From an uncultured delta proteobacterium (GTDB lineage Bacteria > Myxococcota_A > Polyangia > Polyangiales > B10-G4): DNA of 64,000 bases. Of the stretch, positions 24,535 to 42,258 are shown in pieces (positions within the stretch are counted from its first letter, which is position 1; each line of letters begins with the position of its first letter). The DNA lies in the NCBI GenBank assembly GCA_963727445.1, contig CAVSGI010000013.1, forward strand, positions 145,316-209,315, read 5' to 3'. The position numbers and the translations under genes were made by a program. The notes beneath the pieces are model-generated. The model worked only from the letters and a program-made list of their open reading frames with translations, searched no databases and was not told the origin of the DNA.

Positions 24535-25824
24535 GTGCGTCGCTTCAGCCTCCCGCTCGCCGCCGTCTTGCTCCTCTTCACCACGTCGATGGGGTGTGGC
24601 GACGACACGACAGTGGTGGTGGACTCGGGGGTCGTCGATGTCGACACCGGCGTCTCCATGGACACCGGCACGACGATGGACTCGACCACGTCCATGGATA
24701 CGGGCACGACGATGGACAGCGGGGTCGAGGACACGGGGGTCGTCGACACCGGCCCCGAGGACACCGGCCCCCCGCCCTTCGGCCTCGAGACCCTCGTCTA
24801 CAACGAGGACTGCGTCGTCGAGGTGGTCAACCCGGACGAGACCATCGACGTCGCGATGAACATCTCCGAGACCGGCTGCTACACCGACGCGGTCGCCAAG
24901 ACCGTCGCCTCCTCCCTGGTCCCCTTCTCGATCAACTCGCCGCTGTGGACCGACGGCGTGTCGAAGCGACGCTTCTTCGCGATCCCGCCGGGCACCCACG
25001 TGGGCTATCGGGGTGACTACTCCTGGCTCTGGCCGGTGGGGACCATCCTCATGAAGGAGTTCATCCTCCAGACGGACGAGAGCGATCCCGACTCGAACTT
25101 CGTCCTCGAGACGCGCTTCCTCGTGAAGTACGACCCGCGCTTCTGGCGCGGCTACAGCTATCGATGGAACGCCGAGGGCACCGACGCCACGCTGGTGATG
25201 AACGGGACCATGGACACCCTCGTCGACTACGAGGTCACCGACACCAGCGGCGGAACGTACATGCACACTCACGTCTTTCCGGCGCGAGTCACTTGTCTTC
25301 AGTGTCACGCCCCGCGCGCCAACGGCGGCAACGGCACTCAGACGGCGCAGCTGAACCGCGACTTCGACTACACCGCCTGGGGCGGCACCGTCGACAACCA
25401 GATCCGCACCTTCGAGCACATCGGCCTCTTCGACGCTCCTCTGCCCGGGGCTCCGGAGGACCTGCCGCGGATGCCCAACCCCTCGGACACCAGCGCCTCC
25501 CTCGAAGAGCGCGCGCGCGCCTATCTCCACGCCAACTGCGCCCACTGCCACCGCGAGAACGGCTCCGCCGTCACCTCGACCCTGTGGATCCCCTGGGAAT
25601 ACACCCTCGAAGACAGCAACGCCTGCATCGGGCGCGACTCGGGGAGCACGCCGGGCGACATGTGCGAGACCCTCGACGTTCGCATCGTGCCCGGCGACTC
25701 GATGGGCTCGCTGATCCGCTGTGTCATGGAGACGGGTGCCATGCCGCCCGTCGGGACCTATGTGGCCGATCCGGCCCGACAGGTCGTCTTCGACTGGATC
25801 GACTCCCTCGCCTCATGTCCATGA
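24535..25824 (+). CDS. Putative c-type cytochrome lipoprotein (two CxxCH motifs)
   Basis: CLQCH and CAHCH haem-binding motifs. Lipobox TTSMGCG. Start ambiguous: GTG at 24535, ATG at 24472, or tool GTG at 24457. Confidence 0.65.
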   Translation: MRRFSLPLAAVLLLFTTSMGCGDDTTVVVDSGVVDVDTGVSMDTGTTMDSTTSMDTGTTMDSGVEDTGVVDTGPEDTGPPPFGLETLVYNEDCVVEVVNPDETIDVAMNISETGCYTDAVAKTVASSLVPFSINSPLWTDGVSKRRFFAIPPGTHVGYRGDYSWLWPVGTILMKEFILQTDESDPDSNFVLETRFLVKYDPRFWRGYSYRWNAEGTDATLVMNGTMDTLVDYEVTDTSGGTYMHTHVFPARVTCLQCHAPRANGGNGTQTAQLNRDFDYTAWGGTVDNQIRTFEHIGLFDAPLPGAPEDLPRMPNPSDTSASLEERARAYLHANCAHCHRENGSAVTSTLWIPWEYTLEDSNACIGRDSGSTPGDMCETLDVRIVPGDSMGSLIRCVMETGAMPPVGTYVADPARQVVFDWIDSLASCP

Positions 25825-26354
25825 GCCCGAAACCGCGCCCGGCTGCCCCGACCCCCGTCCTGGTCGCCGTTGGAATGCTGCTCGCGCTGCCCCTGCTCGT
25901 CGCGCCGAAGTGCTTCGACTACGACGGCGCGCCGCCGGTCGTGGATTCCGGCATGCCCGATGCCACGATGATGGACGGCGGGGCCATGACCGACGCCGCC
26001 GTGGACGGCGCCGTGGACGCTCCCGTCGACACGGGACCGGACTTCGTCCCCGCCGTGCCCTGCCCCGAACCGAACACCGCGGTCTTCCTGATCCGAAACC
26101 TGGCCTACAACATCGTCTGCGGCTGCGCCGAGGCGGAGGGCCGGGCGTGTACCGTGCCCCGGGGGACCACCATCATCTGGAACTTCGCCGACGGCGTGCA
26201 GCACAACGTCAGCCCCGTGGAAGACTCCTTCATGCGCTCCACCGATCGGGTCAGCGGTCGGTACGTCCAGACCTTCATGGAGCCCGGGACCTACGGCTAC
26301 GGTTGCACCCTTCATCCGAGCGAGATGAGCGGGTACTCGCTCGTCGTCGAGTGA
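25821..26354 (+). CDS. Cupredoxin (type-1 blue copper protein, plastocyanin/amicyanin-like)
   Basis: ATG at 25821 overlaps the upstream stop (ATGA); ATG at 25815 is an alternative. C-terminal copper-ligand pattern GTYGYGCTLHPSEMSG (Cys-x2-His-x4-Met). Leader PLLVAPKCFDYD. Confidence 0.7.
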   Translation: MSPKPRPAAPTPVLVAVGMLLALPLLVAPKCFDYDGAPPVVDSGMPDATMMDGGAMTDAAVDGAVDAPVDTGPDFVPAVPCPEPNTAVFLIRNLAYNIVCGCAEAEGRACTVPRGTTIIWNFADGVQHNVSPVEDSFMRSTDRVSGRYVQTFMEPGTYGYGCTLHPSEMSGYSLVVE

Positions 26355-26436
26355 ACGACCGCGCCCTCGCCTGATCGAAGCGTCCGCGGCCGTGGTGGCC
26401 TTGCCGGCGGACGGGGCGTCGTTACGGGCGCTTGTG

Positions 26437-27642
26437 ATGGACACCGACACGACGACGGAGCCGCCCCGCCGCGGGCGCCGCGTTGTCGTTCTGCGCTACG
26501 TGGCGACGTTCGCAGTGTTTCTCACCGTGCTCGGCGTGCTGGCCGGCATCAAGGGCTGGCAGATCACGACGATCGTCGCCTTCGCCGAGGATGCAGAACG
26601 GCGCGGGCCACCGCCGGATGCGGTGGCGGCGACGACCCTCTCCGAGGAGGCGTGGGAGGACCGGCTCGAGACGGTGGGGACGCTCTCGGCGCGCCAGCGC
26701 GTCGCGCTCACCAGCGAGGTGGCCGGGGAGGTGGTGCGCATCGCGTTCGACTCCGGCGACGTCGTGGAGCGAGGCGATGTGCTGGTCGTCCTCGACTCGG
26801 CGACGGATCGCGCCGACCTACGCTCGGCGGAGGCCACTGCGGAGCTCGCGGAGCTCATGGCGAATCGCACGGATGAGCTCGCCGGGCGCGGCGTCGTACC
26901 GGTCGAGGACCGGGAGCAGGCGGTCGCCGATCTCGAGACGACGCGCGCGCGCGTCTCTTCCCTGCACGCGACGCTCGCGAAGAAGACGATCCGCGCCCCC
27001 TTCTCCGGGCGGCTCGGGATCCGCAACGTCGACCTCGGTCAATACATCGCGCCAGGCACGGTGCTCACGACGCTCACGGACGCGGAGGGGACCTTCGTGG
27101 ACTTCACGATCCCCCAGGACGAGCTCGCGAGCGTGAGCCTCGGCCTGCCCGTCCGACTTTCGGCCGACCGAATCACCAGCGACGTGTCGGCGACGATCGC
27201 CGCTATCGAGCCGGACGTGGATCGGAGAACGCGTGCGGCGCGGATCCGGGCGGTGCTCGAGGGCGACTCCGAGCAGCTTCGACCGGGCATGTTCGTCGAC
27301 GTCCAGGTGGTGCTCCCGACGCGGCGCACCGCGATCGCCGCGCCCGTCACCGCCGTCGTGCACGCACCCTATGGAGACTCGGTCTACGTCCTTTCGGAGC
27401 TGCCCTCGGACGCGCCCGGCATGCGGGAGACATCCGACGGAGAGCCCATCTTCCTGGCGCGACAGACGTTCGTGCACACGGGTCGGACGCGCGGAGACTT
27501 CATCGAGATCGAAGGCGGCGTGGAGCCGGGCGCGCGGGTCGTGACCGCTGGCGCCTTCAAGCTCCACGACGGCTCGCACGTCTACCTGAGCGAAGACGTC
27601 GCTCCACGTCCGGAGCTCGAGCCCACGCCCGAGAACCGGTGA
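26437..27642 (+). CDS. RND efflux periplasmic adaptor (membrane fusion protein, HlyD family)
   Basis: Single N-terminal TM, a coiled-coil hairpin, then beta-barrel/MP-proximal domains. Immediately upstream of the RND permease. Confidence 0.8.
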   Translation: MDTDTTTEPPRRGRRVVVLRYVATFAVFLTVLGVLAGIKGWQITTIVAFAEDAERRGPPPDAVAATTLSEEAWEDRLETVGTLSARQRVALTSEVAGEVVRIAFDSGDVVERGDVLVVLDSATDRADLRSAEATAELAELMANRTDELAGRGVVPVEDREQAVADLETTRARVSSLHATLAKKTIRAPFSGRLGIRNVDLGQYIAPGTVLTTLTDAEGTFVDFTIPQDELASVSLGLPVRLSADRITSDVSATIAAIEPDVDRRTRAARIRAVLEGDSEQLRPGMFVDVQVVLPTRRTAIAAPVTAVVHAPYGDSVYVLSELPSDAPGMRETSDGEPIFLARQTFVHTGRTRGDFIEIEGGVEPGARVVTAGAFKLHDGSHVYLSEDVAPRPELEPTPENR

Positions 27643-27646
27643 ACGC

Positions 27647-30600
27647 ATGAAGTTCGCTTACCTCTTCCTCAGGCGACCGACGTTGGCGATCGTCCTGAAC
27701 GTCTTGATCGCCGTCGGTGGCATTCAAGCGATCCGGTCTCTCAGCGTCCGCCAGTATCCGAAGACCGAAAGCGCGACGATCGTGATCCGCACGGCGTACA
27801 TCGGTGCGAACGCCGACCTCGTGCGTGGATTCATCACGGTTCCCATCGAGCGCGCCGTGGCAGCCGCGGACGGCATCGACTACATCGAATCGCAGAGCGA
27901 GGAGGGCTTCTCGGAGATCGACGTGCGGCTGCGCCTCAACTTCCCGGCGACCGATGCCCTCGCGGACATCAGCTCCCGCGTCGATCAGGTGCGCGCCGAC
28001 CTGCCACCGGAAGCAGAGATCCCGACGATCACCATCGAGCCATCGGACGCACAGGTCGCGGCGATGTACATGAGCTTCGCTTCGTCCGAGTTCGAAGACA
28101 ACGAGATCACCGACTACCTGGTTCGTGAGGTCCAGCCGAGGCTCTCGGCGCTTCGTGGCGTCCAGCGCGCCGACATCCTCGGTGGTCGCACCTTCGCGAT
28201 CCGGGCGTGGCTCGATCCCGACCGAATGGCGGCGCTCGGCGTCGCGCCCGCCGACATCCGACGGGCGATCGGGGAGAACAATTATCTGGCAGCCGTCGGG
28301 GAGACGAAGGGTGCGCTGGTGCGCATCGATCTCACGGCGTCGACCGATCGGCGGTCGCTCCAGGAGTTCCGGGATCTCGTCGTCCAGAGCGATGGGGACA
28401 CGCTGGTACGGCTCTCCGACGTCGCCAACGTGGAGCTGGGCTCGGAGGACTACGATCAGGAGGTCCGGTTCTCCGGGGACGAAGCGATCTTCATGGGCGT
28501 TTGGGTCCTGCCGAACGCGAACACGCTCGAGGTGATCCAGCGCGTGCGCGCCGAGATACAGGAGGTCGAGCGGGAGCTGCCCGCCGGGATGCAGGCGCAC
28601 ATCGCGTACGACTCGACGGTCTACATCGAAGACGCGATGACCGACGTCTTCGACACGCTGCTCGAGACGATCCTCATCGTCGTCATCGTCATCACGGCGT
28701 TCCTGGGCTCTCTGAGGAGCTCGATCGTCCCGGTGATCGCGATCCCGCTGTCGCTCATCGGCGCCGTGTTCCTGATGCAGCTCTTCGGCTTCACCCTGAA
28801 CCTCCTGACGCTCCTCGCGGTCGTCTTGTCGGTCGGGCTGGTGGTCGACGACGCGATCGTCGTGGTCGAGAACGTCGATCGCCACATTCGCTCGGGGGAA
28901 TCGCGCACCCGCGCCGCAGTCAAAGCCGTTCGCGAGCTGGTCGGCCCCATCATCGCGATGACGGTCACGCTCCTCGCCGTCTACGTGCCGATCGGCTTCC
29001 AGGGCGGGCTGACCGGCGCGCTCTTCCGCGAGTTCGCCTTCACCCTCGCCGGGGCGATCTTCATCTCCGGCATCGTCGCCCTCACGCTCTCTCCCGTCAT
29101 GTCGGCCAGACTCCTGCCCGACGAGCCCGGACGCGTCGCTCGCTGGATAGCCGGGCTCTTCGAAGCCGTTCGGCTCCGGTACGTGCGCGTGCTCGACACC
29201 TCGCTTTCGATGCGACCCGCGGTCTACATCGTGTGGATCGGGCTCTCCCTCTCGACGATCCCGATGTTCATGTTCTCTCCCGTGGAGCTCGCGCCTCAGG
29301 AGGATCAGGGCGTCGTCTTCACCACCCTCGACGTCCCCGCCAACGCGTCGCTCGAACGCATCGCGAGCTGGTCACACGCGATCCAGAGCATCTTCCAGAA
29401 GGATCCCGACTACGACCACAGCTTCCAGCTCACCACGCCCAACGGAGGATTCGGCGGCTTCGTCGCCGTGCCGTGGTCTCGACGCACCCGCACCGTCTTC
29501 GACATGCAGCGTTCGATCGGCGAAGAGACGAAGGCCCTCGCCGGTGTACGCGCTCCGATGTTCCTCAGGCCCGCGCTCCCGAGTCCGGGGACGATGCCGG
29601 TCGAGGTCGTGATCACGTCGACGGCCGACCATTCGGAGATACAGCACTTCACGCAGGAGATCACCGACGAGGTGGCAGAGAGCGGGCAATTCGCGTTTCC
29701 CCCGCTCTCGAACGTGCACATCGATCGTCAGAGGAACGACTTCGTGCTCGACCGAAACCAGCTCGCGACCATGGGCATCACCATGCAGACCGTCGGCCGC
29801 GACCTCTCGTCGATGCTCTCCGGAAACTACGTCAACCGCTTCTCCCTGGACGGACGCGCTTACGAGGTCATCCCCCAGATCCAGCGAAGCTCGCGCCTGA
29901 GCCCGGAGCAGATCGAGCGGGTCCACGTCACCGGACCGGACGGCACCCTGGTGCCGCTCGGCGCCGTCTCGGCGCTTCGCCAGCACGTCGAGCCCCGAGC
30001 GTTGCCCCGCTTTCAACAGCTCAACGCGATCAAGCTCTCGGGCATCCCCACACGCTCGCTCGACGACGCGCTCACCACGATCGAGCAAGCCGCCGCCGAC
30101 ACGCTGCCCCCCGGCTATCACGTCGACTACACGGGTGAGTCCAGGCAGCTCCGCGAAGAGGGCGGCAAGTTCCTGCCCGTCTTCGGCCTCGCCATTTTGG
30201 TCGTCTTCCTGGTGCTCGCCGCGCAGCTGGACTCGTTTCGCGACCCTTTCGTGATCCTCGCGGGCTCGGTTCCGCTGGCGCTCTTCGGCGCGCTCATCTT
30301 CACCTTCCTGCACTTCGACGGACCGCCGGGCGTGCACTTCGGACTGACCGAGGGGTGGACCACGACGATGAACATCTACTCGCAGGTGGGTCTGGTCACG
30401 CTCGCCGGGCTCATCTCGAAGAACGCGATCCTCATCGTCTCCTTCGCAAACGAGCGGCAGAAGGAGGGGCTGTCGAAGGTCGATGCGGTCAGGGACGCAG
30501 CGTCGACGCGCCTGAGGCCGATCCTCATGACCACCGCCGCGACGGTGGCGGGTCACTTTCCGCTCACGCTCGTCACTGGTCCCGGCGCGGCGGCGCGAAA

Positions 30601-30733
30601 CTCGATCGGGATCGTGCTGGTCGGCGGAATGGCGATCGGAACGCTCTTCACCCTCTTCGTCGTGCCCTCCGTCTACGTCCTCGTCGCCAAGACGCGGAGC
30701 AGCCGCACGGAGCCGGAGCCAGGGCTCGGCTGA
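27647..30733 (+). CDS. RND efflux transporter permease (AcrB/HAE1 family)
   Basis: 1028 aa with 12 TM helices and canonical AcrB N-terminal sequence (MKFAYLFLRRPTLAIVLNVLI...). Confidence 0.9.
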   Translation: MKFAYLFLRRPTLAIVLNVLIAVGGIQAIRSLSVRQYPKTESATIVIRTAYIGANADLVRGFITVPIERAVAAADGIDYIESQSEEGFSEIDVRLRLNFPATDALADISSRVDQVRADLPPEAEIPTITIEPSDAQVAAMYMSFASSEFEDNEITDYLVREVQPRLSALRGVQRADILGGRTFAIRAWLDPDRMAALGVAPADIRRAIGENNYLAAVGETKGALVRIDLTASTDRRSLQEFRDLVVQSDGDTLVRLSDVANVELGSEDYDQEVRFSGDEAIFMGVWVLPNANTLEVIQRVRAEIQEVERELPAGMQAHIAYDSTVYIEDAMTDVFDTLLETILIVVIVITAFLGSLRSSIVPVIAIPLSLIGAVFLMQLFGFTLNLLTLLAVVLSVGLVVDDAIVVVENVDRHIRSGESRTRAAVKAVRELVGPIIAMTVTLLAVYVPIGFQGGLTGALFREFAFTLAGAIFISGIVALTLSPVMSARLLPDEPGRVARWIAGLFEAVRLRYVRVLDTSLSMRPAVYIVWIGLSLSTIPMFMFSPVELAPQEDQGVVFTTLDVPANASLERIASWSHAIQSIFQKDPDYDHSFQLTTPNGGFGGFVAVPWSRRTRTVFDMQRSIGEETKALAGVRAPMFLRPALPSPGTMPVEVVITSTADHSEIQHFTQEITDEVAESGQFAFPPLSNVHIDRQRNDFVLDRNQLATMGITMQTVGRDLSSMLSGNYVNRFSLDGRAYEVIPQIQRSSRLSPEQIERVHVTGPDGTLVPLGAVSALRQHVEPRALPRFQQLNAIKLSGIPTRSLDDALTTIEQAAADTLPPGYHVDYTGESRQLREEGGKFLPVFGLAILVVFLVLAAQLDSFRDPFVILAGSVPLALFGALIFTFLHFDGPPGVHFGLTEGWTTTMNIYSQVGLVTLAGLISKNAILIVSFANERQKEGLSKVDAVRDAASTRLRPILMTTAATVAGHFPLTLVTGPGAAARNSIGIVLVGGMAIGTLFTLFVVPSVYVLVAKTRSSRTEPEPGLG

Positions 30734-30886: not shown

Positions 30887-32095
30887 ATGATAGGCAGCCG
30901 AAAAGGGATCGTCGGGCTCATCGCCTTCGCGGCCGTGCTCGCGCTCTGGCCGGCGGGGGAGGCGCACGCCATCCCCGCGTTCGCGCGGACCTACAACGTC
31001 CCCTGCGCCAGCTGTCACTCCTTCATCACGCGCCGCAACGAGTTCGGTGACGTCTTCCGCAAGAGCGGCTTTCGCTGGCCGCTCATGGCCGAGGGCGGGA
31101 GCCCGGAGCTCGAGGTCACCGAGCTCAAGGGGATCGGCCTGCTCGACGCGTGGCTCCCTCGGACGGTCCCGATCTCGGTGGAGGGCGCGCTCTCGGGTTC
31201 GGTGAGCACCGATCCCGACGCCGAGCCCATCACCATCGGCACGCCGGCCCTCACCCTCATCTCGGGCGCCGCATTTGGCGAGCACGTCTCGCTCTTCGGT
31301 CGCTTCAGCACCACCGGCCCACCGGCGGAGCTCTACGTCCACTTCGCGCGGCTCGGCGACTTACCCGAGCTCAACCTGCGCGCTGGCTACTTCGAACAGA
31401 CGACGACGCAGTTCCGACCGAACGAGAACCTCCTCGGGAGCTATCTCCACGGCACGTCGGCGATCAGCGGCTTCATACCATCGCAAGCGCGCGGCGGCAT
31501 CGAGGCCAACGGCGTCTTACGCTTCCTGGGCTCGCGCACCTTCTACGCCGGCGGCATCGTTCAGAACGCCGACCTCGGCTCGAACATGGACGGGTACTTC
31601 CGTCTCGAGCAGAAGATCGGAGGCATCAACCTGTTGGGCCAGGAACCCGAGATCGACCTCATGGAGGAGGAGTCCTTCTTCGACCAGGTCTACGCCACTG
31701 TCGCGGGGTGGTGCTACTTCGGGCGGGTGGGGGACATCACCGGGTTCAACACCCACCGGATCCGGCGCTTCGCCCTCGAAGGGTCGCTCTACGTCCATGG
31801 CTTCACGCTCCAGGGCGCGATGATGTTGGGCTTCGACGACGAGGTCCGCACGAACCGCGCGATCAACAGCGTCTCGTGGTTCCTCGAGGCCCAGTACCCG
31901 ATCGCCTCCTGGCTCTCGGTCGTCTACATCTACCAGTATCAGGATTCGAACGATCTGATGCGCGAGCGGCAACAGCACGACGCCGGCATCATCGCGCTCA
32001 TCACCGAGAACGTGCGAACGCGCCTCAAGTTCTCCTACTCGGACGACGGCGTCAAAAACGACATCGTCGAGCTCCAGATCCTGGCGGCGATGTGA
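30887..32095 (+). CDS. Secreted putative outer-membrane beta-barrel-like protein carrying an N-terminal CxxCH haem motif (hypothetical)
   Basis: Signal peptide ending AHA. YNVPCASCHSF lies just after the cleavage site. The remainder has alternating hydrophobic/polar beta-strand character. It is not TolC-like. Confidence 0.5.
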   Translation: MIGSRKGIVGLIAFAAVLALWPAGEAHAIPAFARTYNVPCASCHSFITRRNEFGDVFRKSGFRWPLMAEGGSPELEVTELKGIGLLDAWLPRTVPISVEGALSGSVSTDPDAEPITIGTPALTLISGAAFGEHVSLFGRFSTTGPPAELYVHFARLGDLPELNLRAGYFEQTTTQFRPNENLLGSYLHGTSAISGFIPSQARGGIEANGVLRFLGSRTFYAGGIVQNADLGSNMDGYFRLEQKIGGINLLGQEPEIDLMEEESFFDQVYATVAGWCYFGRVGDITGFNTHRIRRFALEGSLYVHGFTLQGAMMLGFDDEVRTNRAINSVSWFLEAQYPIASWLSVVYIYQYQDSNDLMRERQQHDAGIIALITENVRTRLKFSYSDDGVKNDIVELQILAAM

Positions 32096-35000
32096 TGAAC
32101 AAAGGGCTGGGTCTCACAGCCAAGCTCCTCCTCGTCACGGTCGTCGTCGTCGTGGCTTCCTTCGCCGCGGTGTGGTGGATCGCGACCGACACCTCGCGCA
32201 TCGGCCTGATCGCGCTCTCGGACGAAAACCTCGCGCTCTCCACACAGAACCTGGCCCGCGCGATTCAGAGCAGCCTCGCCGACGCCCGCGCCGACGCGCG
32301 CGCCACTGCGCGCCTCGACCTCGCCGCCGAGCCGATGGACGCGGGCGATCCGAAGAACTTCGACTGGCTCGCCGACGAGCTCACCGAGAGCAAAGACAAG
32401 TACGCCGCGGTGGTGGCGGTCGACAACGAAGGCGTGGTCCGCGGCAGCAACACTCGCTACGACGAGGATGAGGGCGACGCGGAGGTGTCGTTGCACGACT
32501 GCCACCTCGGGGGCGGCTGGCTCGAGGAGGTCGCCCAGGCCGAGGTCGGCACCGCCGTCTGGATCTCGCCAATGACCGACGAGTGCCTCGCTCCCTTCAG
32601 CGACGGGCCGGTGGTCGGATACGCGCTCCCGGTCTTCGACATCCTCGACGACCGCCTCGGCGCCATCGCCTTCTTCGTGAAGGTCAGCCACTTCCGCGAG
32701 ATCCTCGACGGCTACGTCAGCCGCAGCGACGAGGACAGCGTGAACTCGCTGGCGCTGATCCTGGGCCGCGACGGGCGCCCGGTGGTGTTGCCGCAGGGGC
32801 TGGAGAACAGCACCTTCGCCGACGCGCGGCTCGACGGCGAGATCGAAGGCAGTGGCGTGCTCACCGCCGAGTCGGGGGAGCGCTACCGCGTCCGCGGCAC
32901 CCCCCTCTCGGGCGCCGGGGAGGACGCGGGGTGGTCGGTGCTTCTGCTGACGCACCAGGCGGCCTTCGACGCGCCGGTGGAGAAGCTCAGCACGTCGCTC
33001 TTGTGGCTCTTCGTGATCGCGGTGTTGATCGTGGTGATCGCGCTCACCCTCGCCGGCACGCGCCTCCTCAGCCCGATCCGGCGGCTCACCGCCGCCGTCA
33101 GCAAGACCACGCGCGCCACCGAGTTTCGTCAGCTCCCCGTCGAGACCCGCGACGAGGTCGGTGCCCTGACGCGCACCTTCAACGCGATCTTCGGCACCCT
33201 CAAGGAGTACGAGGAGAGCCTCGAGCAGAAGGTCGAGGAGCGCACCGAGCAGCTTCGCGAAGCGAAGCAGGAGGTCTCGGACATCCTCGACAACATGGCG
33301 CAGGCGATCTTCACGGTCGGCGCCGGACGAAGGGTGAATCAGGAGTACTCGGCGTATTGCGAGGAGCTCCTGGGCGAGGTGGAGATCGCGGGGTCGGACG
33401 CCCTCGACGTGCTGGGCCTCGCCGAAGACGATCCCGCGCGCAAGAGCCTGCGCTTCTGGCTCGACACGGTCATCGGCGCGAGCGAGCTCCAGTGGGCGCT
33501 CGCGGGGGGCGGGGGTCCGGTCAAGGAGCTCACCTACACGGGACACCCGGACGGAGAGGAGCGTGTTCTGCAGCTCGAGTACGCGCCGATCTACGCGGAT
33601 GCCGTCCTCGACAAGGTGATGATCATCGCGCGCGACATGACCGCCGTGGTGCGCCTGCAGGAAGAGGTCATCAAGAAGGAGGACGAGAACCGCGAGAACC
33701 TCGAGCGCGTCGCGGAGCTCGCCCAGCTCGACCCCGAGCTCTTCACGAAGTTCCTCGCCGAAGCCGACGAGATCGTCGAGCGCTGCCACGAGGCCATCGC
33801 GCAGCTTCGCGCCGACATGAGCGACGCGGAGGCCGTCAACGCGCTCTTCCGTGCGATGCACACGCTGAAGGCCAACGCGCGCATCTTCAAGATGACCAGC
33901 GTGCAGAACGTCGCCCACGACGCCGAGGACCGCTTCCAGAAGGTGCGCGACGGAGACGTGAAGCTGACGCCCGAGGCCATCGACGAGCTCGAGGCGAGCC
34001 TCGCGGTGGTGCGCCAGCGGCTCGACGAGTACGACCGCCTGGGCCAGCGGGTGCTCCTCGGCCAGGGCGGCGGCGCGCGCGAGGCGCTGGCCCGCGCCGA
34101 CAAGCCCCTCGACGCGCTCGAAAAGGTCGCCGTGCGCCTCGGCGCGAGCGTGCTCGCCGTGGACGAGGGCGCCGATCGCACGGAGCTCGACGCGGCGATC
34201 GAAGAGGCCAAAGACCTCGCGTCGCGGATCGGCTCGCTGGGGATGCCGAGCCTCGCCGGGCGCGTGGTGGAGACGCTCGAGCAGATCGCGAAGGACGCGA
34301 GCGCGGGCGCCGAAGCGGCCAGGACCCTCGCCGAGCAGACCGCCGACCAGCACGCCTTCCATCGGGAGCTGTCGCGTTTGCCGGACGCCGCCGCGTTCCT
34401 CGAAGAGAGCCAGCCCATGAGTCAGAAGACCGCCGACGACCTGGCGGGCGCGGCCGAGGGAGGCGTCGATGCGCTGAACCGGACCCTCGGCGGCCTCCAC
34501 ACCTTCAAGGCGCACGCGCGGAGCAGCGGCGTCCGCTCGCTGCAGGATCTCGCCCACGCGATGGAAGACCGCCTGGCGGAGCTCCGCGACCAGGGCGAGG
34601 CGCTCGACGAGGCCGAGGAGCGAAAGGCCGCGGCCAAGCTGGGCCGGATGATCGCCCTGCTCGGCGACGCCCAACAGCTCATCGAGAACGCCGCGCCGAA
34701 GGACGAACGCCGGAAGAAGGGCGCGACGGTGCGCGTGCCGGCCGCGCGGGTGATGGAGGTGCGGCGCCAGGTGAAAGAGCTCGCGCGCGCCCTCGAAGCT
34801 CGTCTGCCTCAGAGCGACGTCAAGAAGGCCTACGACTCACTCCACGCCGCGGTTCGCGAGCTGACGGTGGTGCCGCTCTCGGATCTCTTCGATCGCATGA
34901 CCAAGATGGTCCTCGACCTCTCGATCGAGGTGCACAAGCCCCTTCACGACCTCGCGGTCGAGGGCGCCGACATCCAGGTCGACACCAAGCTGATCGAGAA

Positions 35001-35442
35001 GCTGCGCGACGTCCTGACCCACGGCCTGCGCAACGCAGTCGACCACGGCATCGAGGAGCCGGGCGAGCGACCGGACGACAAGCCGCGACGCGCCACCATC
35101 TCGGTGACCGCCAGCTGGAAGGACGACGACCTCGTCGTGGCCGTCACCGACGACGGGCGCGGCATCGACGTGGAGCGCGTTCGCGCCACCGCCGTCGAGC
35201 GCCACAAGCTCAGCGAAGAGGACGCCGCCCGCGCCACCGACGCCGAGCTCATCGAGCTCCTCTTCACGCCGGGCTTCTCCACCGCGCGCCGCGTCACCGA
35301 GCTCTCTGGCCGCGGCGTCGGCCTCGACGTGATCCGCACCACCATGCGCGAGCTCAAGGGCGACGCGACGCTGACCTCGACGCGCGGCGAAGGGACGACG
35401 CTCACGCTGCGGATCCCGGCGAGCTACTACCAGGAGCTCTGA
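32095..35442 (+). CDS. Membrane sensor kinase of CheA lineage: periplasmic sensor-TM-HAMP-Hpt-Hpt-CheA-type HATPase, lacking P2 and P5/CheW domains
   Basis: ATG at 32095 overlaps the upstream stop by 1 nt. Two TM helices flank a periplasmic domain of about 270 aa. Two Hpt motifs (AMHTLKANARIF, LHTFKAHARSSG). CheA P4-type ATPase (GRGVGLDVIRTTMRELKG). Confidence 0.75.
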   Translation: MNKGLGLTAKLLLVTVVVVVASFAAVWWIATDTSRIGLIALSDENLALSTQNLARAIQSSLADARADARATARLDLAAEPMDAGDPKNFDWLADELTESKDKYAAVVAVDNEGVVRGSNTRYDEDEGDAEVSLHDCHLGGGWLEEVAQAEVGTAVWISPMTDECLAPFSDGPVVGYALPVFDILDDRLGAIAFFVKVSHFREILDGYVSRSDEDSVNSLALILGRDGRPVVLPQGLENSTFADARLDGEIEGSGVLTAESGERYRVRGTPLSGAGEDAGWSVLLLTHQAAFDAPVEKLSTSLLWLFVIAVLIVVIALTLAGTRLLSPIRRLTAAVSKTTRATEFRQLPVETRDEVGALTRTFNAIFGTLKEYEESLEQKVEERTEQLREAKQEVSDILDNMAQAIFTVGAGRRVNQEYSAYCEELLGEVEIAGSDALDVLGLAEDDPARKSLRFWLDTVIGASELQWALAGGGGPVKELTYTGHPDGEERVLQLEYAPIYADAVLDKVMIIARDMTAVVRLQEEVIKKEDENRENLERVAELAQLDPELFTKFLAEADEIVERCHEAIAQLRADMSDAEAVNALFRAMHTLKANARIFKMTSVQNVAHDAEDRFQKVRDGDVKLTPEAIDELEASLAVVRQRLDEYDRLGQRVLLGQGGGAREALARADKPLDALEKVAVRLGASVLAVDEGADRTELDAAIEEAKDLASRIGSLGMPSLAGRVVETLEQIAKDASAGAEAARTLAEQTADQHAFHRELSRLPDAAAFLEESQPMSQKTADDLAGAAEGGVDALNRTLGGLHTFKAHARSSGVRSLQDLAHAMEDRLAELRDQGEALDEAEERKAAAKLGRMIALLGDAQQLIENAAPKDERRKKGATVRVPAARVMEVRRQVKELARALEARLPQSDVKKAYDSLHAAVRELTVVPLSDLFDRMTKMVLDLSIEVHKPLHDLAVEGADIQVDTKLIEKLRDVLTHGLRNAVDHGIEEPGERPDDKPRRATISVTASWKDDDLVVAVTDDGRGIDVERVRATAVERHKLSEEDAARATDAELIELLFTPGFSTARRVTELSGRGVGLDVIRTTMRELKGDATLTSTRGEGTTLTLRIPASYYQEL

Positions 35443-37660: not shown

Positions 37661-40600
37661 TCACGGCAGCACCACCGGCGTCGGCGTACGGTAGAGCGGA
37701 CCGCTCCCAGCGGCCCCCACTTCGTTTCGGCCCCAACACTGGAGGGAACCAGCGGGGGTCGCGCTTCCCTCGAGCACACAGGTGGTGTGGGCGCCCTCGG
37801 TCCCCGCCACGACCTCCGTGACGTTCGTGACGCCCATCACCAGGGCGGGAGTGCTGGCCGAAGCGGTGCCGCCGTTACCGAGCTCATAGAAGGACGAGCC
37901 GCCCCAGCATCTCACCGATCCGTCCACGTAGGCGGCGCAGCTGTGATCCGCGCCCGCGGCCACGCTGACCGCCTCGATGGACGTGAACGCGACGGCCACT
38001 GGCGTGGCGCTGTTGGTCGCCGATCCATCACCGAGCTGGCCGCCATCGCCGCGGCCCCAGCAGTGCACCTCGCCGGACGCAAGCAGAGCGCACGCATGAG
38101 ACTCCCCGGCGGCGAGCCCCTGAACGGTGCTGAGGCCGCTCACGGTGACCGGAGCAGTGGAATCGGTCGTGCTCCCATTGCCGAGCTGACCGTAGTCGTT
38201 GGCCCCGAAGCAGTCGACGGTGCCGCCACTGCGGAGCACGCAGCTGAAATTCGCGCCGAGGGCCAAATCCGTTCCGTCGTCGATGCCCGGGACCGCGCCA
38301 CCGGGTACGTCGAAGGTACCGGTGGTCGTCCGGCCGAGCTGACCATGGTCGTTCTCGCCCCAGCAGTGGATGGCCCCGGCGGAGGTGATTGCGCACGAGT
38401 GATTCGAGCCCGCGTCGATCGCGATCTCCTCCCCCGCCAGCGCGACCAGGATCGGCGTGCCGGAGCTCGTCGGCGTGGACACCCCCACCGCGCCCACCGC
38501 GTTGCGCCCCCAACAATAGGCTTGTCGACCCATGGCGCCGCCCAGGTCCTCGACCGCGCACGAGTGAGTGCCCCCCGCTGCGATATCGACGACGTTGGTC
38601 AGGTCGCTGACCAGCACGGGCGCGCTTCTGTTGAGCGCGGCGCCGTCGCCCAGTTGCCCGTAGTTGTCGTTGCCCCAGCACATGGCGTGACCCGCTTGGA
38701 TGGCGCAACCGTGGCTCCCCCCGTGTGAGAGCGCCGTGAAGCCACTGGGGAGCGTCCCCATCGCGTCGCGAACCGGCTCGGCTCGCTCGAGTTGCATGGT
38801 GTCGCGGGGGACCGCGCCGAAGAACGCCGCGCCCCAGCATTCGTAGGCGGTGCCCCGACGGCCGCACGCCGCCCACCGCCCGCCCCGGACGTCGCGATAC
38901 ATGTCGAGAGCAGCGATGCGCGAGGGCGCCTCTCCATCCGTGGTGCGGGGGGTGTTGTTCCCGTTCCCGTATTGACTCTCGTAGTTGCGGCCCTGGCACC
39001 GCACCCCGTCGCTCTTCCGGTAACAGAGCGAGTAGACGCTCTGCCAATGGTCGACGACCCCCGAGGTCTCGATGGGCACCGGCGTCGACTCCGGGCCGCT
39101 TCGAGCGCCGATCTGTCCCGCTGTGTTGTCCCCCCAACACCAGAGCTCTCCACCCGCGCCGCGCACACAGAACGTCCGGAACTCCGCCGTGATGGCGACG
39201 GCGTTGCTGATATCCGCCACCTGCACGGGAATGTAGGTGTTGGACGAGACGCCACCATCACCGAGTTGTCCAGCCGTGTTGGCTCCCCAACAGTAGACGC
39301 TCCCGTCGTCGATGACCGCACAGGTCGCGTCCTGCCCGACCGCGACGCCGACGGCGGCGCCGCCAGGGGCCCAGGGGGAGGCCACGAGCTTGGCCGTGAA
39401 GGGCGTGCCGGAGGGGATGCCCGCCGAGCCGCCGTAATTCGTTCCCCAGCACCACACCGCCCCCGCATCGTCGACCGCACACGTGCGGACGTAGCTGTCG
39501 ACGTCGACGAAGGTCCGCGGGTCGAAGGCGGCGGCGTCGGTAATTGCCAGCACCGGAGTCGGATACGCAGACTCCGGGAGGGTGTTGCCTGCGCCGAGCT
39601 GACCGAGATCGTTGGCCCCCCAGCAGAGGAGCTCGCCCGCATCATCGATGATGCAGGTGTGACCGACACCAGCCGACACCTTCCGCGCGAGCTGAGTCGG
39701 CGCGCCCGCATCCGCGCTCTGGGGAACGGGCGCGGCGCCCTCGAGCGCACGTGGGTACTCCGCCGGGCCGCATTGATAGGCGTCATTCTCGCCCCAGCAG
39801 AAGACCCGGCCGCTCGCGCGGATCAAGCAGCCATGACCCCAATCCACGTCTCCGTCGACCGGTGGATCGCAGACGCCATCGGTGCAGGTCGTGCCCGCGG
39901 GACACACCGTTCCACATGCACCACAGTTCGACGTATCGGAACCCAGGTCCGCTTCGCAACCCGTGCTCGCGTCCCCATCGCAGTCGTCGAAGCCGGTCTC
40001 GCAGGAGTCGATGACGCACGCGGATGCCGCGCAACTCCCACTGGCGACGTGAGTGTCGTCGCAGGCAGCACCACAGGCTCCGCAGTTCGCCAGTTCGTTG
40101 GCGGTGTCGGCTTCGCACCCGTTCGACTCGTCTCCGTCGCAGTCACCGCGATCCGCGGCGCAGGTGAAGCCGCAGACCGAGCTCACGCACGTAGCCGTGG
40201 CACCGGCCACATCCGTGCAGACCATGTCACACCTGCCGCAGTGCGCCGGGTTCGTGGTCGTGTCGACGCATTGGGTCCCGCAAGTGGTCGCGGCACACAT
40301 GTCGGAACAGACCGGACTCCCTCCGCTGGAATCACAGAGCTGCCCCGAATCACAAGCCACGTCGCAGCTGCCGCACGCATCGACGCTGGTGAGGTCGGCT
40401 TCGCACCCGTTCGACGGGTCGCCGTCGCAATCGCTCCGGTTCGTTTCACAGCTGTAGGTGCATGCACCGTCCGCACACGAGGCGGAGGCGTGACTCCGGC
40501 TGGCGCAATCGGCGGCCGTCGTGCACTCGTCTCCGCCGTCGGGCTGGGCGTCCGAACCACCATCATTCCCGCTGTCCACGGGGCCGTCGAAGGTGAAGTC

Positions 40601-40678
40601 CGAAGCGTTGTCGACGAGACTGCACCCTCCCGCAAGGGCGACGAGCGCAAGCACCGCAGCTGTCTTGACAGTTTGCAT
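37661..40678 (-). CDS. Lipoprotein with N-terminal Cys-rich repeats and multiple RCC1/BLIP-II-like repeats
   Basis: Lipobox LALAGGCS. CGxCxxxC-type Cys repeats, then about 12 repeats of the form ...CWG.N..GQLG... Confidence 0.75.
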   Translation of the reverse strand: MQTVKTAAVLALVALAGGCSLVDNASDFTFDGPVDSGNDGGSDAQPDGGDECTTAADCASRSHASASCADGACTYSCETNRSDCDGDPSNGCEADLTSVDACGSCDVACDSGQLCDSSGGSPVCSDMCAATTCGTQCVDTTTNPAHCGRCDMVCTDVAGATATCVSSVCGFTCAADRGDCDGDESNGCEADTANELANCGACGAACDDTHVASGSCAASACVIDSCETGFDDCDGDASTGCEADLGSDTSNCGACGTVCPAGTTCTDGVCDPPVDGDVDWGHGCLIRASGRVFCWGENDAYQCGPAEYPRALEGAAPVPQSADAGAPTQLARKVSAGVGHTCIIDDAGELLCWGANDLGQLGAGNTLPESAYPTPVLAITDAAAFDPRTFVDVDSYVRTCAVDDAGAVWCWGTNYGGSAGIPSGTPFTAKLVASPWAPGGAAVGVAVGQDATCAVIDDGSVYCWGANTAGQLGDGGVSSNTYIPVQVADISNAVAITAEFRTFCVRGAGGELWCWGDNTAGQIGARSGPESTPVPIETSGVVDHWQSVYSLCYRKSDGVRCQGRNYESQYGNGNNTPRTTDGEAPSRIAALDMYRDVRGGRWAACGRRGTAYECWGAAFFGAVPRDTMQLERAEPVRDAMGTLPSGFTALSHGGSHGCAIQAGHAMCWGNDNYGQLGDGAALNRSAPVLVSDLTNVVDIAAGGTHSCAVEDLGGAMGRQAYCWGRNAVGAVGVSTPTSSGTPILVALAGEEIAIDAGSNHSCAITSAGAIHCWGENDHGQLGRTTTGTFDVPGGAVPGIDDGTDLALGANFSCVLRSGGTVDCFGANDYGQLGNGSTTDSTAPVTVSGLSTVQGLAAGESHACALLASGEVHCWGRGDGGQLGDGSATNSATPVAVAFTSIEAVSVAAGADHSCAAYVDGSVRCWGGSSFYELGNGGTASASTPALVMGVTNVTEVVAGTEGAHTTCVLEGSATPAGSLQCWGRNEVGAAGSGPLYRTPTPVVLP

Positions 40679-42126: not shown

Positions 42127-42258
42127 GCTCTCAGTATACACACCGTCCGGTCGGCGACTGTTAGGATGGTCAGTCGGTAAGCACTGCATCTTCGGCTGAG
42201 TCGCCGAGAAGGAGGGGATACGGAAACGACGGCGAACCGAAGCGCTCTGGTCGCGGCG

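What the first reader, a model, noticed from the sequence alone, without database searches (positions are those of the whole stretch)
32095..35442. Membrane-bound CheA-lineage kinase lacking P2 and P5, with tandem Hpt domains
The architecture is TM - periplasmic domain of about 270 aa - TM - HAMP - Hpt - Hpt - CheA-type P4 ATPase (GRGVGLDV), with no CheW-like P5 and no CheY-binding P2. This is a CheA catalytic core rewired as a directly ligand-sensing transmembrane kinase. Its start overlaps by 1 nt the stop of the CxxCH-bearing putative outer-membrane protein, which in turn follows an RND pump.
Basis: partly seen in the sequence, partly recalled or inferred. Interest (0 to 1): 0.55.

Follow-up and report, generated by a model that had tools for sequence, protein, structure and literature searches.

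The report
Membrane sensor kinase with CheA core
This is a real gene for a membrane-spanning sensor kinase that uses the catalytic core of the chemotaxis kinase CheA without its receptor-coupling domain; that design is already described as the class III histidine kinases, but here it sits inside a conserved gene set for an iron-oxidase-like outer-membrane cytochrome.

Summary
ORF 32095..35442 encodes 1115 aa: TM, a roughly 270-aa periplasmic double-Cache-like domain, TM, HAMP, a PAS-like domain, Hpt (His589), a 105-aa helical spacer, a second Hpt (His802), a short P3-like hairpin and a CheA-type P4. The protein ends 6 residues after P4, so it has no P2 and no P5. All best HMM, PDB and fold matches are to CheA, not HisKA kinases.

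It is not a one-off. A profile search found at least 85 proteins with PAS-like-Hpt-P4 ending at P4, and 0 of 111 carried a P5. This fits the class III histidine kinases (HKIII) of Adebali et al. 2017, as I recall that paper. The recalled partner genes are present: a CheY-like regulator, CheX phosphatases, and in sister loci a soluble MCP.

Three things appear new:
- The upstream CxxCH protein is a Cyc2-family fused cytochrome-porin.
- The kinase lies within 3 kb of that gene in all 10 related loci, alongside cupredoxin and cytochrome genes.
- Hpt copy number in this clade runs from 1 to about 33.

In one sister locus the same sensor is fused to an MCP instead. The RND pump is incidental. Function (redox or Fe(II)-linked sensing) is inferred, not shown.

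The parts
32095..35442 (+). HKIII-type transmembrane sensor kinase gene (1115 aa)
   Evidence: Open frame. Start shared with orthologues (MxxxLGLxxKLLL). Pfam and NCBIfam domain hits. AF2 model, mean pLDDT 78.
32122..32184 (+). TM1 (residues about 10-30)
   Evidence: Hydropathy peak 2.64. Part of helix 7-73 in the model.
32185..32994 (+). Periplasmic sensor domain, double-Cache-like (residues 31-300)
   Evidence: AF2 shows a long N-terminal helix followed by two alpha/beta modules of 5-6 strands each. Homologous sensors score as dCache_1 in P0006-8, P0070 and the L008 MCP (E = 9.6e-10). There is no Pfam hit in this protein itself and no PDB sequence hit for the sensor profile.
32995..33060 (+). 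TM2 (residues about 301-322)
   Evidence: Hydropathy peak 3.14.
33058..33219 (+). HAMP domain (residues 322-375), followed by a coiled coil to about residue 399
   Evidence: Pfam HAMP, 30.5 bits against a cut-off of 25. Invariant DEVGxL motif.
33292..33642 (+). PAS-like domain (residues 400-516), the signature of the family
   Evidence: AF2 shows a five-stranded sheet plus helices. Pfam PAS_4 is sub-threshold at E = 0.0013. S419, W467, D514 and T516 are nearly invariant across 50 diverse relatives.
33727..34062 (+). Hpt domain 1 (residues 545-656), phospho-acceptor His589
   Evidence: Pfam Hpt. Matches CheA P1 structures at 1e-9. H589 is invariant.
34063..34380 (+). Helical spacer (residues 657-762), present only in the closest relatives
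   Evidence: Four helices in the model. hhalign against Hpt gives probability 0.4%. Absent from P0005-P0011.
34381..34692 (+). Hpt domain 2 (residues 763-866), His802
   Evidence: hhalign against Hpt1: 98.9%, E = 1.4e-17, histidines aligned. The His is conserved in P0002 and P0004.
34729..34857 (+). P3-like two-helix hairpin (residues 879-921)
   Evidence: Helices 883-901 and 906-921. Foldseek aligns 248 of 250 columns of CheA P3P4 4xiv. Sequence profiles support only the second helix (82%). No Pfam H-kinase_dim hit.
34867..35424 (+). CheA-type P4 ATP-binding domain (residues 925-1110), with intact N, G1, F and G2 boxes
   Evidence: R979, N980, H984, D1019, G1021, G1023, R1073, G1074 and G1076 are invariant in 50 relatives.
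30887..32095 (+). Cyc2-family fused cytochrome-porin ('D'), with its stop overlapping the kinase start by 1 nt
   Evidence: Signal peptide followed by AIPAFARTY-NVP-CASCH. AF2 beta-barrel whose best fold matches are porins, including OprP. The Cyc2 signature motif is taken from Keffer et al. 2021.
25833..26354 (+). Small cupredoxin ('C') of the conserved module
   Evidence: Pfam Copper-bind, and NCBIfam halocyanin and amicyanin. C-x2-H-x4-M site in the sequence. Syntenic in related loci.
24457..25824 (+). SO2930-family di-haem cytochrome c
   Evidence: TIGR03806 at 1e-61. Two CxxCH motifs. Orthologue present in L001.
54031..55470 (-). Haem (CQLCH) plus membrane-domain protein ('B', Aq_1264_TM family in relatives)
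55526..56002 (-). Small mono-haem cytochrome c ('A')
   Evidence: CTKCH after a signal peptide. It sits next to D even in Geobacteraceae.
56041..56976 (-). CheX-like phosphatase 1
   Evidence: Pfam CheX, 29.4 bits against a cut-off of 27. Syntenic with the kinase in L001-L003, L027, L028 and L030.
56989..58308 (-). 439-aa secreted protein with a cupredoxin-like C-terminus, part of the conserved module
58429..58794 (+). CheY-like single-domain response regulator, the likely phosphoryl acceptor
   Evidence: Pfam Response_reg at 6e-28. 35% identical to E. coli CheY, with the counterparts of D12, D13, D57, T87 and K109 all conserved. Directly downstream of the kinase in L002.
60454..61335 (+). CheX-like phosphatase 2
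   Evidence: Pfam CheX, 36.5 bits.

Best explanation
What it is. The gene encodes a dimeric inner-membrane sensor histidine kinase of the class III (HKIII) type. An ordinary sensor front end is fused to the phosphotransfer and catalytic core of CheA. The front end is a periplasmic double-Cache-like domain, HAMP, a coiled coil and a PAS-like domain. The core is Hpt, a P3-like hairpin and P4. It lacks the P2 and P5 domains that tie CheA to CheY docking and to receptor/CheW arrays.

Shown here. The architecture, the CheA ancestry of Hpt and P4, intact ATP-binding motifs and acceptor histidines, absence of P5 across the whole family, and conserved gene partners.

Inferred mechanism. A periplasmic signal moves TM2, and HAMP, the coiled coil and the PAS-like domain then change the geometry of Hpt relative to P4. 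P4 phosphorylates His589 and/or His802. The phosphoryl group passes to the CheY-like single-domain regulator at 58429..58794. The two CheX-like phosphatases reset the signal.

Inferred input. In this Myxococcota clade the kinase gene is translationally coupled to a Cyc2-type outer-membrane cytochrome-porin. It is always embedded among cupredoxin and c-type cytochrome genes. The input is therefore most likely the redox state or the substrate (for example Fe(II)) handled by that electron-transfer module.

Inferred output. A CheY-type behavioural or second-messenger response rather than transcription.
For: CheA lineage.
- NCBIfam CheA models score 1.8e-70 and 1.9e-46.
- Every PDB sequence hit to the catalytic half is CheA, and CheA P1 chains account for most Hpt hits.
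- Foldseek matches CheA P3P4 and P4 at 33-39% identity with TM up to 0.93.

No P5.
- The protein ends at P4.
- A P5 HMM built from 47 ChpA-like proteins hits 53 of 65 proteins without the PAS-like domain, and 0 of 111 proteins with PAS-like-Hpt-P4.
- Pfam lists no CheW and no H-kinase_dim among the 25 families shown (of 30 matched) for the 50 family members.

Sensor front end.
- Two TM segments, HAMP and the AF2 domain layout.
- Relatives carry dCache_1, CHASE, CHASE4, CHASE8, GAF and cNMP_binding domains in front of the same core.
- In L008 the homologous dCache-HAMP sensor is fused to an MCP signalling domain instead.

Catalytic competence. The N, G1, F and G2 boxes and both Hpt histidines are conserved.

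Partners.
- CheY plus CheX are directly downstream in L002.
- L003 and L027 have a soluble MCP plus CheY plus CheX.
- CheY and two CheX genes are in the window, and CheY plus CheX in L001.
- Single-domain regulators are adjacent in distant relatives.
- The receiver's active-site residues are intact.

Coupling to the redox module.
- D is immediately upstream of the kinase in the window, L001-L005, L025 and L027. It is within 3 kb in L028 and L030, so 10 of 10 loci of the close clade have it.
- D carries the Cyc2 motif and a porin fold.
Against: - No experiment exists for this protein or, to my knowledge, for any close relative.
- The ligand is unknown. Pfam does not call a Cache domain in this protein itself, and the sensor profile finds no solved structure by sequence.
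- In this window the CheY and CheX genes lie 21-25 kb from the kinase. They are linked to it only through synteny with other loci.
- Two relatives with the same sensor (P0052, P0070) are not next to the redox module, so the coupling is clade-specific.
- The P3-like hairpin is supported by the model but only partly by sequence profiles. The dimerisation mode is therefore open.
- A neighbour-joining tree of P4 did not separate the P5-less proteins from P5-bearing CheAs. A single origin is not demonstrated.
- The HKIII paper could not be read with these tools. Its definition is quoted from memory.
Confidence: 0.7

Rival explanations
1. A canonical CheA that lost its C-terminus by truncation, frameshift or assembly error. 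On this view it is a decaying gene rather than a designed architecture.
For: CheA-type P4 is the last domain, and the next gene is convergent only 5 nt away.
Against: Orthologues at 73%, 55% and 36-47% identity end at the same position with the same ...IPAxYYQxL tail. At least 85 relatives end within 25 residues of P4, and none of 111 has a P5. Third-position GC of the reading frame that holds the gene is 0.81, typical of real genes here. The N-terminal TM-sensor-HAMP part has no counterpart in canonical CheA (Berry et al. 2023).
Confidence: 0.02
2. An ordinary class I (HisKA/DHp) sensor kinase whose C-terminus merely resembles CheA.
For: The front end (TM, periplasmic domain, TM, HAMP, PAS) is typical of class I kinases. 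Weak NCBIfam hits to NarQ, WalK and BaeS cover HAMP only.
Against: There is no HisKA hit. The acceptor histidines lie in Hpt four-helix bundles. P4 is 36-39% identical to CheA P4, against about 15% for HK853 and YycG.
Confidence: 0.01
3. The kinase is the regulator of the adjacent RND efflux pump, which is the context the first reader stressed.
For: In the window, the genes for the di-haem cytochrome, cupredoxin C, the MFP adaptor, the RND pump, D and the kinase lie on one strand with short gaps.
Against: The pump and its adaptor are missing from the orthologous locus L001, where C is followed directly by D and the kinase. tblastn with the other module genes placed them as close neighbours in the related loci, with no pump-sized gap between them. 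The pump is a generic HAE1 multidrug type. No DNA-binding regulator is nearby.
Confidence: 0.04
4. The kinase does not read a ligand through its own periplasmic domain. It is instead driven by a protein partner. That partner could be the haem domain of the Cyc2-like porin, a periplasmic cupredoxin or cytochrome, or on the cytoplasmic side the soluble MCP-like protein seen in sister loci.
For: There is a conserved 1-nt stop/start overlap with D. The gene after D is always a transmembrane signalling protein but of three different kinds: HKIII, MCP or Ser/Thr kinase. Soluble MCPs sit in the same operon in L003 and L027. The sensor has few invariant residues.
Against: Cache domains normally bind small molecules (general knowledge). 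No soluble MCP was found in this window. No interaction was modelled or measured.
Confidence: 0.2
5. The system controls expression of the Cyc2-like electron-transfer genes through a transcription factor elsewhere in the genome. On this view it does not control motility or second messengers.
For: The tight genetic linkage with the module suggests co-regulation.
Against: All receiver proteins in the conserved neighbourhoods are of three kinds: single-domain CheY-like, CheB, or REC-REC-cyclase. CheX phosphatases, typical of fast behavioural circuits, accompany them.
Confidence: 0.12

Closest known systems
Class III histidine kinases (HKIII; Adebali, Petukh, Reznik, Tishkov, Upadhyay, Zhulin, J Bacteriol 2017, 199:e00218-17). 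The definition is recalled from memory; only the citation was seen here.
   Same: Sensor domains on the same polypeptide as an Hpt and a CheA-type kinase domain. No CheW-like domain. No dimerisation domain detectable by HMM. Partner genes are a single-domain response regulator, CheX and often an odd soluble chemoreceptor. All of these are seen here or in sister loci.
   Different: This clade has a second Hpt plus spacer, and relatives have up to about 33 Hpt domains. The model shows a P3-like hairpin. The system is embedded in a Cyc2-like, cupredoxin and cytochrome gene module, which as far as I recall is not part of the HKIII description. The proposed link to type IV pili could not be tested.
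Canonical CheA (classes F1-F17, ACF, Tfp; Berry, Andrianova and Zhulin 2023, PMC10782961)
   Same: P1-type Hpt with the HxxKG-like acceptor motif. P4 has all its nucleotide-binding boxes. The junction from the second P3 helix into P4 is conserved.
   Different: No P5, which was present in 100% of 13,673 surveyed CheAs. No P2. It has its own TM sensor, HAMP and PAS-like domains, whereas CheA 'lacks a sensor (input) domain'.
ChpA-type multi-Hpt CheAs of type IV pilus systems
   Same: Several Hpt domains lie upstream of one P4. These proteins are the best-scoring P5-bearing hits.
   Different: ChpA proteins are soluble and carry P5 and a C-terminal receiver, with no sensor domain.
dCache-HAMP methyl-accepting chemotaxis proteins
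   Same: Homologous periplasmic sensor, TM2 and HAMP. The L008 protein in the same genomic position is 29% identical over residues 22-363 and ends in an MCP signalling domain.
   Different: There is no MCP hairpin here. The output is a kinase on the same chain, so no CheW or CheA array is needed.
Cyc2 fused cytochrome-porin of iron-oxidising bacteria (Keffer et al. 2021, PMC8406198). This is for the upstream gene.
   Same: Signal peptide, AxPxFAR motif 5 residues before a single CxxCH, an OprP-like porin barrel, and length over 365 aa.
   Different: The [Q/K] position is T, A, R or E, and the PXL motif after the haem site is missing in the Myxococcota copies. It is translationally coupled to a signalling kinase. 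Iron oxidation is untested.

Membership tests
Class III histidine kinase (HKIII) | CheA-type (class II) HATPase_c kinase domain together with an Hpt domain | tested here: met
Class III histidine kinase (HKIII) | Sensory (input) domains on the same polypeptide | tested here: met
   Two TM segments, a periplasmic double-Cache-like domain, HAMP and a PAS-like domain.
Class III histidine kinase (HKIII) | No recognisable dimerisation domain (H-kinase_dim or HisKA) | tested here: inconclusive
   There is no Pfam hit in this protein, and neither family is among the 25 shown (of 30 matched) for 50 relatives. However, the AF2 model has a two-helix hairpin that Foldseek aligns with CheA P3. Profile comparison supports only its second helix (82%).
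Class III histidine kinase (HKIII) | No CheW-like (P5) domain | tested here: met
   The protein ends 6 residues after P4. 0 of 111 family proteins hit a P5 HMM.
Class III histidine kinase (HKIII) | Genomic partners: a single-domain response regulator, a CheX phosphatase and often a soluble atypical chemoreceptor | tested here: met
   Window: CheY-like regulator and two CheX genes. L002, L003, L027, L028 and L030. Soluble MCP in L003 and L027 only.
Class III histidine kinase (HKIII) | Genome also encodes pilT (type IV pilus motility) | not testable with these tools
   Only 64 kb of the genome is available.
Canonical CheA | P5 (CheW-like) receptor-coupling domain, found in 100% of surveyed CheAs | tested here: not met
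Canonical CheA | P1 (Hpt) with a phospho-acceptor His | tested here: met
   His589 and His802.
Canonical CheA | P3 dimerisation domain | tested here: inconclusive
Canonical CheA | P4 kinase domain with N, G1, F and G2 boxes | tested here: met
Canonical CheA | No sensor (input) domain; signal received through MCP and CheW | tested here: not met
   It has its own TM sensor. No CheW and no MCP were found among the window ORFs examined.
Class I (HisKA) sensor kinase | DHp/HisKA domain carrying the acceptor His directly before the ATPase domain | tested here: not met
   No HisKA hit. The fold and sequence of the catalytic half are CheA-like.
Cyc2 fused cytochrome-porin (upstream gene) | AXPXFAR[Q/K][T/Y] motif located 5 residues before a single CXXCH | tested here: met
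   AIPAFARTY-NVP-CASCH. The spacing and AxPxFAR are kept in 16 of 16 homologues. The [Q/K] position is T here.
Cyc2 fused cytochrome-porin (upstream gene) | PXL motif 4 residues after CXXCH | tested here: not met
   The window has SFITRRN. The Geobacteraceae homologues have TIYPEL. Keffer et al. did not list PXL among their screening criteria.
Cyc2 fused cytochrome-porin (upstream gene) | Signal peptide plus a 16-stranded OprO/OprP-like porin, length at least 365 aa | tested here: met
   402 aa. The AF2 barrel has pLDDT 70-90. Foldseek finds porins, with OprP 2o4v at rank 6. Porin_O_P is annotated in one homologue.
Cyc2 fused cytochrome-porin (upstream gene) | Fe(II) oxidase activity | not testable with these tools
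   Biochemistry is required.

The most novel reading that the evidence does not exclude
The HKIII kinase and the Cyc2-type porin-cytochrome, whose gene overlaps it, form a trans-envelope sensing device. Electron flow or Fe(II) at the outer-membrane haem would be read by the kinase's periplasmic domain, either directly or through the cupredoxin and cytochrome partners. The signal would be converted by a CheA-type core, with no receptor array, into CheY phosphorylation. That would steer pilus- or gliding-based movement, or cyclic-nucleotide signalling, along redox or iron gradients in non-flagellated Myxococcota. In sister lineages the same porin-cytochrome is wired to an MCP or to a Ser/Thr kinase, which would make it a general outer-membrane redox antenna for signalling.
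Probability: 0.2. Interest if true: 0.75.

Novelty: new variant of a known kind. Interest (0 to 1): 0.42.

Why it matters
CheA is usually presented as a kinase that cannot sense anything itself and needs receptors and CheW. This family shows the same catalytic core running as a self-contained transmembrane sensor. It appears at least 85 times among the roughly 190 sequences examined, yet sources annotate it only as 'HAMP domain-containing', 'Hpt domain-containing' or 'ATP-binding' protein.

It therefore offers a simple system for asking how P1-P4 chemistry is switched without an array. In one sister locus the homologous sensor drives an MCP instead, which gives a natural comparison.

The consistent linkage to a Cyc2-like cytochrome-porin is, to my knowledge, unreported. 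It gives a concrete handle on two open questions. The first is what divergent Cyc2 homologues outside classical iron oxidisers do. The second is how bacteria sense extracellular redox substrates.

The Hpt arrays of 2 to about 33 copies raise a further question about phosphate storage or signal shaping.

Tried and rejected
- Word-indexed homologue search with the sensor alone (residues 1-400) returned only one fragment, so it was uninformative.
I replaced it with a P5 HMM built from 47 ChpA-like sequences.
- I suspected the 657-762 spacer was a degenerate Hpt. hhalign probabilities of 0.4% and 0.15% rejected that.
- A neighbour-joining tree of P4 domains, built to test a single origin of the P5-less proteins, gave no clean split. 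The question is left open.
- The sensor profile searched against PDB sequences gave no hit.
- The promoter and terminator scan of 24-36 kb gave nothing above chance.
- Five literature searches for P5-less or transmembrane CheA found no description. The relevant paper (Adebali 2017) is not in the searchable library. It, Wuichet, Cantwell and Zhulin 2010 and Wuichet and Zhulin 2010 could not be opened.
- NCBIfam has no model for D.
- The idea that the RND pump belongs to the system was rejected on synteny.


Full report
**1. The observation.** The window has about 69% G+C. ORF 32095..35442 (+) is open for 1115 codons. Its ATG shares one base with the TGA of the upstream 402-aa ORF 30887..32095. 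The N-terminus (MNKGLGLTAKLLL...) matches that of its orthologues, so the start is right. Hydropathy gives two transmembrane segments, at about residues 10-30 and 301-322.

Pfam finds HAMP (322-370), Hpt (two stretches, best 548-641) and HATPase_c (969-1109). It finds no CheW, H-kinase_dim or HisKA. NCBIfam's best models are CheA. CheA_Halo scores 1.8e-70, aligning residues 906-1110 to profile positions 334-538 of 666. The E. coli-type CheA model scores 1.9e-46. The chain ends 6 residues after the ATPase domain, so there is no room for a P5.

**2. Is the core really CheA-like?** A phmmer search of all PDB sequences returns only CheA P3-P4 or P4 chains (1e-31 to 4e-41) for the C-terminal part. 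For the Hpt it returns mainly CheA P1 chains (about 1e-9), plus some designed helical-bundle proteins. No HisKA kinase appears.

An AlphaFold2 model built on ten family members has mean pLDDT 78. It shows this layout:
- TM1 plus a long helix (7-73)
- two alpha/beta modules (79-287)
- TM2 (288-323)
- HAMP and a coiled coil (to 399)
- a PAS-like fold (403-514)
- a helical bundle (547-656)
- four further helices (661-760)
- a second bundle (765-866)
- a helical hairpin (883-921)
- an ATPase domain (925-1109)

Foldseek against the PDB puts T. maritima CheA P3P4 (4xiv) first, with 248 of 250 columns aligned at 33% identity. CheA P4 structures have TM 0.84-0.93 at 34-39% identity. HK853 and YycG follow at about 15% identity. 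The N, G1, F and G2 boxes are intact and invariant in 50 relatives.

**3. The two Hpt domains.** The second Hpt is sub-threshold for Pfam on its own (22 bits). hhalign against the first Hpt gives 98.9% probability and E = 1.4e-17, with the acceptor histidines aligned: MH589TLKANARIF and LH802TFKAHARSS. The 105 residues between them show no Hpt similarity (0.4%).

The spacer plus Hpt2 form an insertion found only in the three closest proteins (P0001, P0002, P0004). Seven more distant members have one Hpt, joined directly to the hairpin. Elsewhere in the clade the number is very variable. P0055 and P0061 have two. Fragment P0059 has at least 15. P0052, with the same sensor, has about 33 Hpt domains in 4858 aa.

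**4. It is a family, not an oddity.** The word-indexed search found only about 11 look-alikes. An exhaustive profile search of 1.84 billion representatives listed many more. I parsed 176 sequences (those 150 plus the earlier hits) with sub-profiles of each domain. Of these, 111 carry the PAS-like domain in front of Hpt. At least 85 end within 25 residues of P4, and 69 of those have N-terminal TM segments.

A P5 profile built from 47 ChpA-like proteins hits 53 of the 65 proteins without the PAS-like domain, and none of the 111 with it. Pfam run on 50 members gives HATPase_c in 50, Hpt in 49 and HAMP in 28. Varied sensors appear in front of the core: dCache_1, dCache_3, sCache, CHASE, CHASE4, CHASE8, GAF and cNMP_binding. 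CheW and H-kinase_dim are absent from the 25 families shown, out of 30 matched.

Named members come from Polyangiaceae, Myxococcota, Desulfobacterales, Clostridiaceae and Steroidobacteraceae. Their names are uninformative: 'HAMP domain-containing', 'Hpt domain-containing' or 'ATP-binding' protein.

**5. What is known.** Berry, Andrianova and Zhulin (2023) found P5 in 100% of 13,673 CheAs. They state that CheA lacks a sensor domain. By that definition this protein is not a CheA.

The architecture matches what I remember of the class III histidine kinases (Adebali et al. 2017, J Bacteriol 199:e00218-17). As I recall it, these have sensory domains plus an Hpt and a CheA-type kinase domain, with no dimerisation domain. 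They work with a single-domain response regulator, CheX and often an unorthodox soluble chemoreceptor, and were proposed to modulate type IV pilus motility. That paper is not held by the tools. I saw only its citation and a one-sentence paraphrase, so the definition is recalled, not read.

The features I recall can be tested here, and most are met (see the membership table). The dimerisation point is ambiguous. HMMs see nothing, the model shows a P3-like hairpin, and profile comparison supports only its second helix.

**6. Gene context.** Loci for relatives were fetched by exact protein look-up and by a scan of species-representative genomes with the upstream protein. tblastn with the window's proteins defines a conserved module:
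- A: a small mono-haem cytochrome (55526..56002, minus strand)
- B: a haem plus membrane-domain protein, Aq_1264_TM family in relatives (54031..55470, minus strand)
- C: a cupredoxin (25833..26354)
- D: the 402-aa protein (30887..32095)
- a 439-aa cupredoxin-like protein (56989..58308, minus strand)
- in the window and L001, an SO2930-family di-haem cytochrome (24457..25824)

D lies immediately upstream of the kinase in the window, L001-L005, L025 and L027. It lies within 3 kb on the other strand in L028 and L030, so 10 of 10 loci of the close clade have it. A CheY-like regulator and CheX accompany the module in the window, L001, L002, L003, L027, L028 and L030. A soluble MCP does so in L003 and L027.

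L027 carries everything on one strand: A, B (split into two genes), C, soluble MCP, CheY, CheX, a CCP/MauG-like peroxidase, D, then the kinase. The window's CheY-like protein keeps the counterparts of D12, D13, D57, T87 and K109 of E. coli CheY. Distant family members also sit beside a single-domain regulator.

The HAE1-type RND pump and its adaptor (26392..30733) are absent from the orthologous locus L001, where C abuts D. They are not part of the system.

**7. The upstream protein is a Cyc2-type cytochrome-porin.** D has a signal peptide followed by AIPAFARTY-NVP-CASCH. Its AF2 model is a beta-barrel (pLDDT 70-90) with a disordered N-terminal 70 residues. The best fold matches are general porins and OprP.

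Keffer et al. (2021) define Cyc2 by four features: a signal peptide; one CXXCH preceded 5 residues upstream by AXPXFAR[Q/K][T/Y], a motif they call unique to Cyc2; a PXL motif after the haem site; and a 16-strand OprO/OprP-like porin. All 16 aligned D homologues keep AxPxF[AGS]R, five residues, then CxxCH. The Geobacteraceae copies also keep PEL. The Myxococcota copies, including this one, do not. Deltaproteobacterial Cyc2 homologues are already on published Cyc2 trees.

So D is a divergent Cyc2-family member. Its iron-oxidase activity is untested.

**8. A swap of outputs.** In L008 the gene after D encodes a protein whose periplasmic domain, TM2 and HAMP are homologous to those of the kinase. 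It is 29% identical over residues 22-363, and scores dCache_1 at 9.6e-10. It ends in an MCP signalling domain with the hairpin [31 protein letters not shown].

In L006 and L024 the gene after D is a PEGA-domain Ser/Thr kinase, and its coordinates give the same 1-nt overlap with D. Other relatives join the sensor to REC-REC, or to an unidentified region followed by a partial ATPase match. The porin-cytochrome gene is thus repeatedly followed by a signalling protein (an MCP, a class III kinase or a protein kinase). The CheA-core version does in one chain what an MCP, CheW and CheA would do together.

**9. Mechanism.**
- Shown: the architecture, the ancestry, intact catalytic and acceptor residues, absence of P5 in the family, and conserved partners.
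- Inferred: a dimer held by HAMP and the coiled coil. Periplasmic input is relayed through the PAS-like domain to the Hpt and P4 geometry. His589 and/or His802 become phosphorylated. The phosphate passes to the CheY-like regulator and CheX resets it.
- More speculative: the input relates to the Cyc2-like electron-transfer module (Fe(II) or redox), and the output is behavioural or a second messenger.

CheB (21392..22483, above the NCBIfam cut-off) and a REC-REC-cyclase (19614..21380) are syntenic with L001 and may be further acceptors. I found no CheR, CheW or MCP among the window ORFs examined.

**10. Verdict.** The kind, however, is already described and is widespread in sequence data. The apparently new points are the tie to a Cyc2-family porin-cytochrome module, the sensor shared with an MCP in a sister locus, and the Hpt arrays. 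I rate it a new variant of a known kind, of moderate interest.

Noticed in passing
window 30887..32095 (+): The 'CxxCH outer-membrane protein' is a Cyc2-family fused cytochrome-porin. It has AIPAFARTY, three further residues, then CASCH, followed by a porin barrel. It lacks the PXL motif that its Geobacteraceae homologues keep.
   Followed up: yes
L008 11175..13223; L006 11119..; L024 11143..13461: In sister loci the gene right after the Cyc2-like gene varies. In L008 it is an MCP with the homologous dCache sensor. In L006 and L024 it is a PEGA-domain Ser/Thr kinase with the same 1-nt stop/start overlap. Three kinds of signalling protein therefore follow the same porin-cytochrome gene.
   Followed up: partly
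P0052 (JGI 3300072015, 47 kb contig); P0059: P0052 is a 4858-aa relative with the same sensor, HAMP and PAS-like domains, and about 33 tandem Hpt domains before P3-P4. Fragment P0059 has at least 15. P0052 is not next to the cytochrome module.
   Followed up: partly
window 54031..55470 (-); L003, L027, L028, L030: Protein B combines an N-terminal CQLCH haem site, a thrombospondin-type-3-like calcium motif and a C-terminal multi-helix membrane domain (Aq_1264_TM family). In four related loci it is split into two genes.
   Followed up: no
window 25833..26354 (+) and 56989..58308 (-): The cupredoxin C and the 439-aa protein share an almost identical leader, PLLVAPKCFDYD. This suggests a common lipoprotein-like signal or a duplicated 5' end.
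   Followed up: no
window 19614..21380 and 21392..22483 (+): A REC-REC class III nucleotide cyclase and a bona fide CheB methylesterase (394 bits against a cut-off of 293) are syntenic with the orthologous locus L001. No CheR, CheW or MCP was found among the window ORFs examined.
   Followed up: partly
window 26392..30733 (+): An HAE1-type multidrug RND pump with its adaptor sits between the cupredoxin and the Cyc2-like gene in this window. It is absent there in the locus of the 73%-identical orthologue (L001), and no trace of it appeared in the gene tables of the other loci. This suggests an insertion into the operon.
   Followed up: yes
window 23197..24390 (-): The real gene here is a minus-strand cytochrome c (Pfam 1.3e-10, third-position GC 0.90). 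The overlapping plus-strand ORF 23167..24420 is spurious.
   Followed up: yes
L003 7760..8698; L027 5581..6720: In two loci a di-haem CCP/MauG-type cytochrome c peroxidase gene directly precedes the Cyc2-like gene. Weaker matches to it lie 1.3-2.3 kb upstream of D in L008 and L025. There is none in the window.
   Followed up: no
window 37661..40678 (-), 41002..43083 (-), 62693..63988 (+): A 1005-aa protein with about ten RCC1 repeats and two proteins with Stig1-like cysteine-rich domains. These domains are better known from eukaryotes.
   Followed up: no
L009-L023, L026 (Geomonas, Geobacter, Citrifermentans): Distant Cyc2-like homologues (25-29% identity) in Geobacteraceae are always followed by a homologue of the small cytochrome A, but not by any kinase.
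   Followed up: partly
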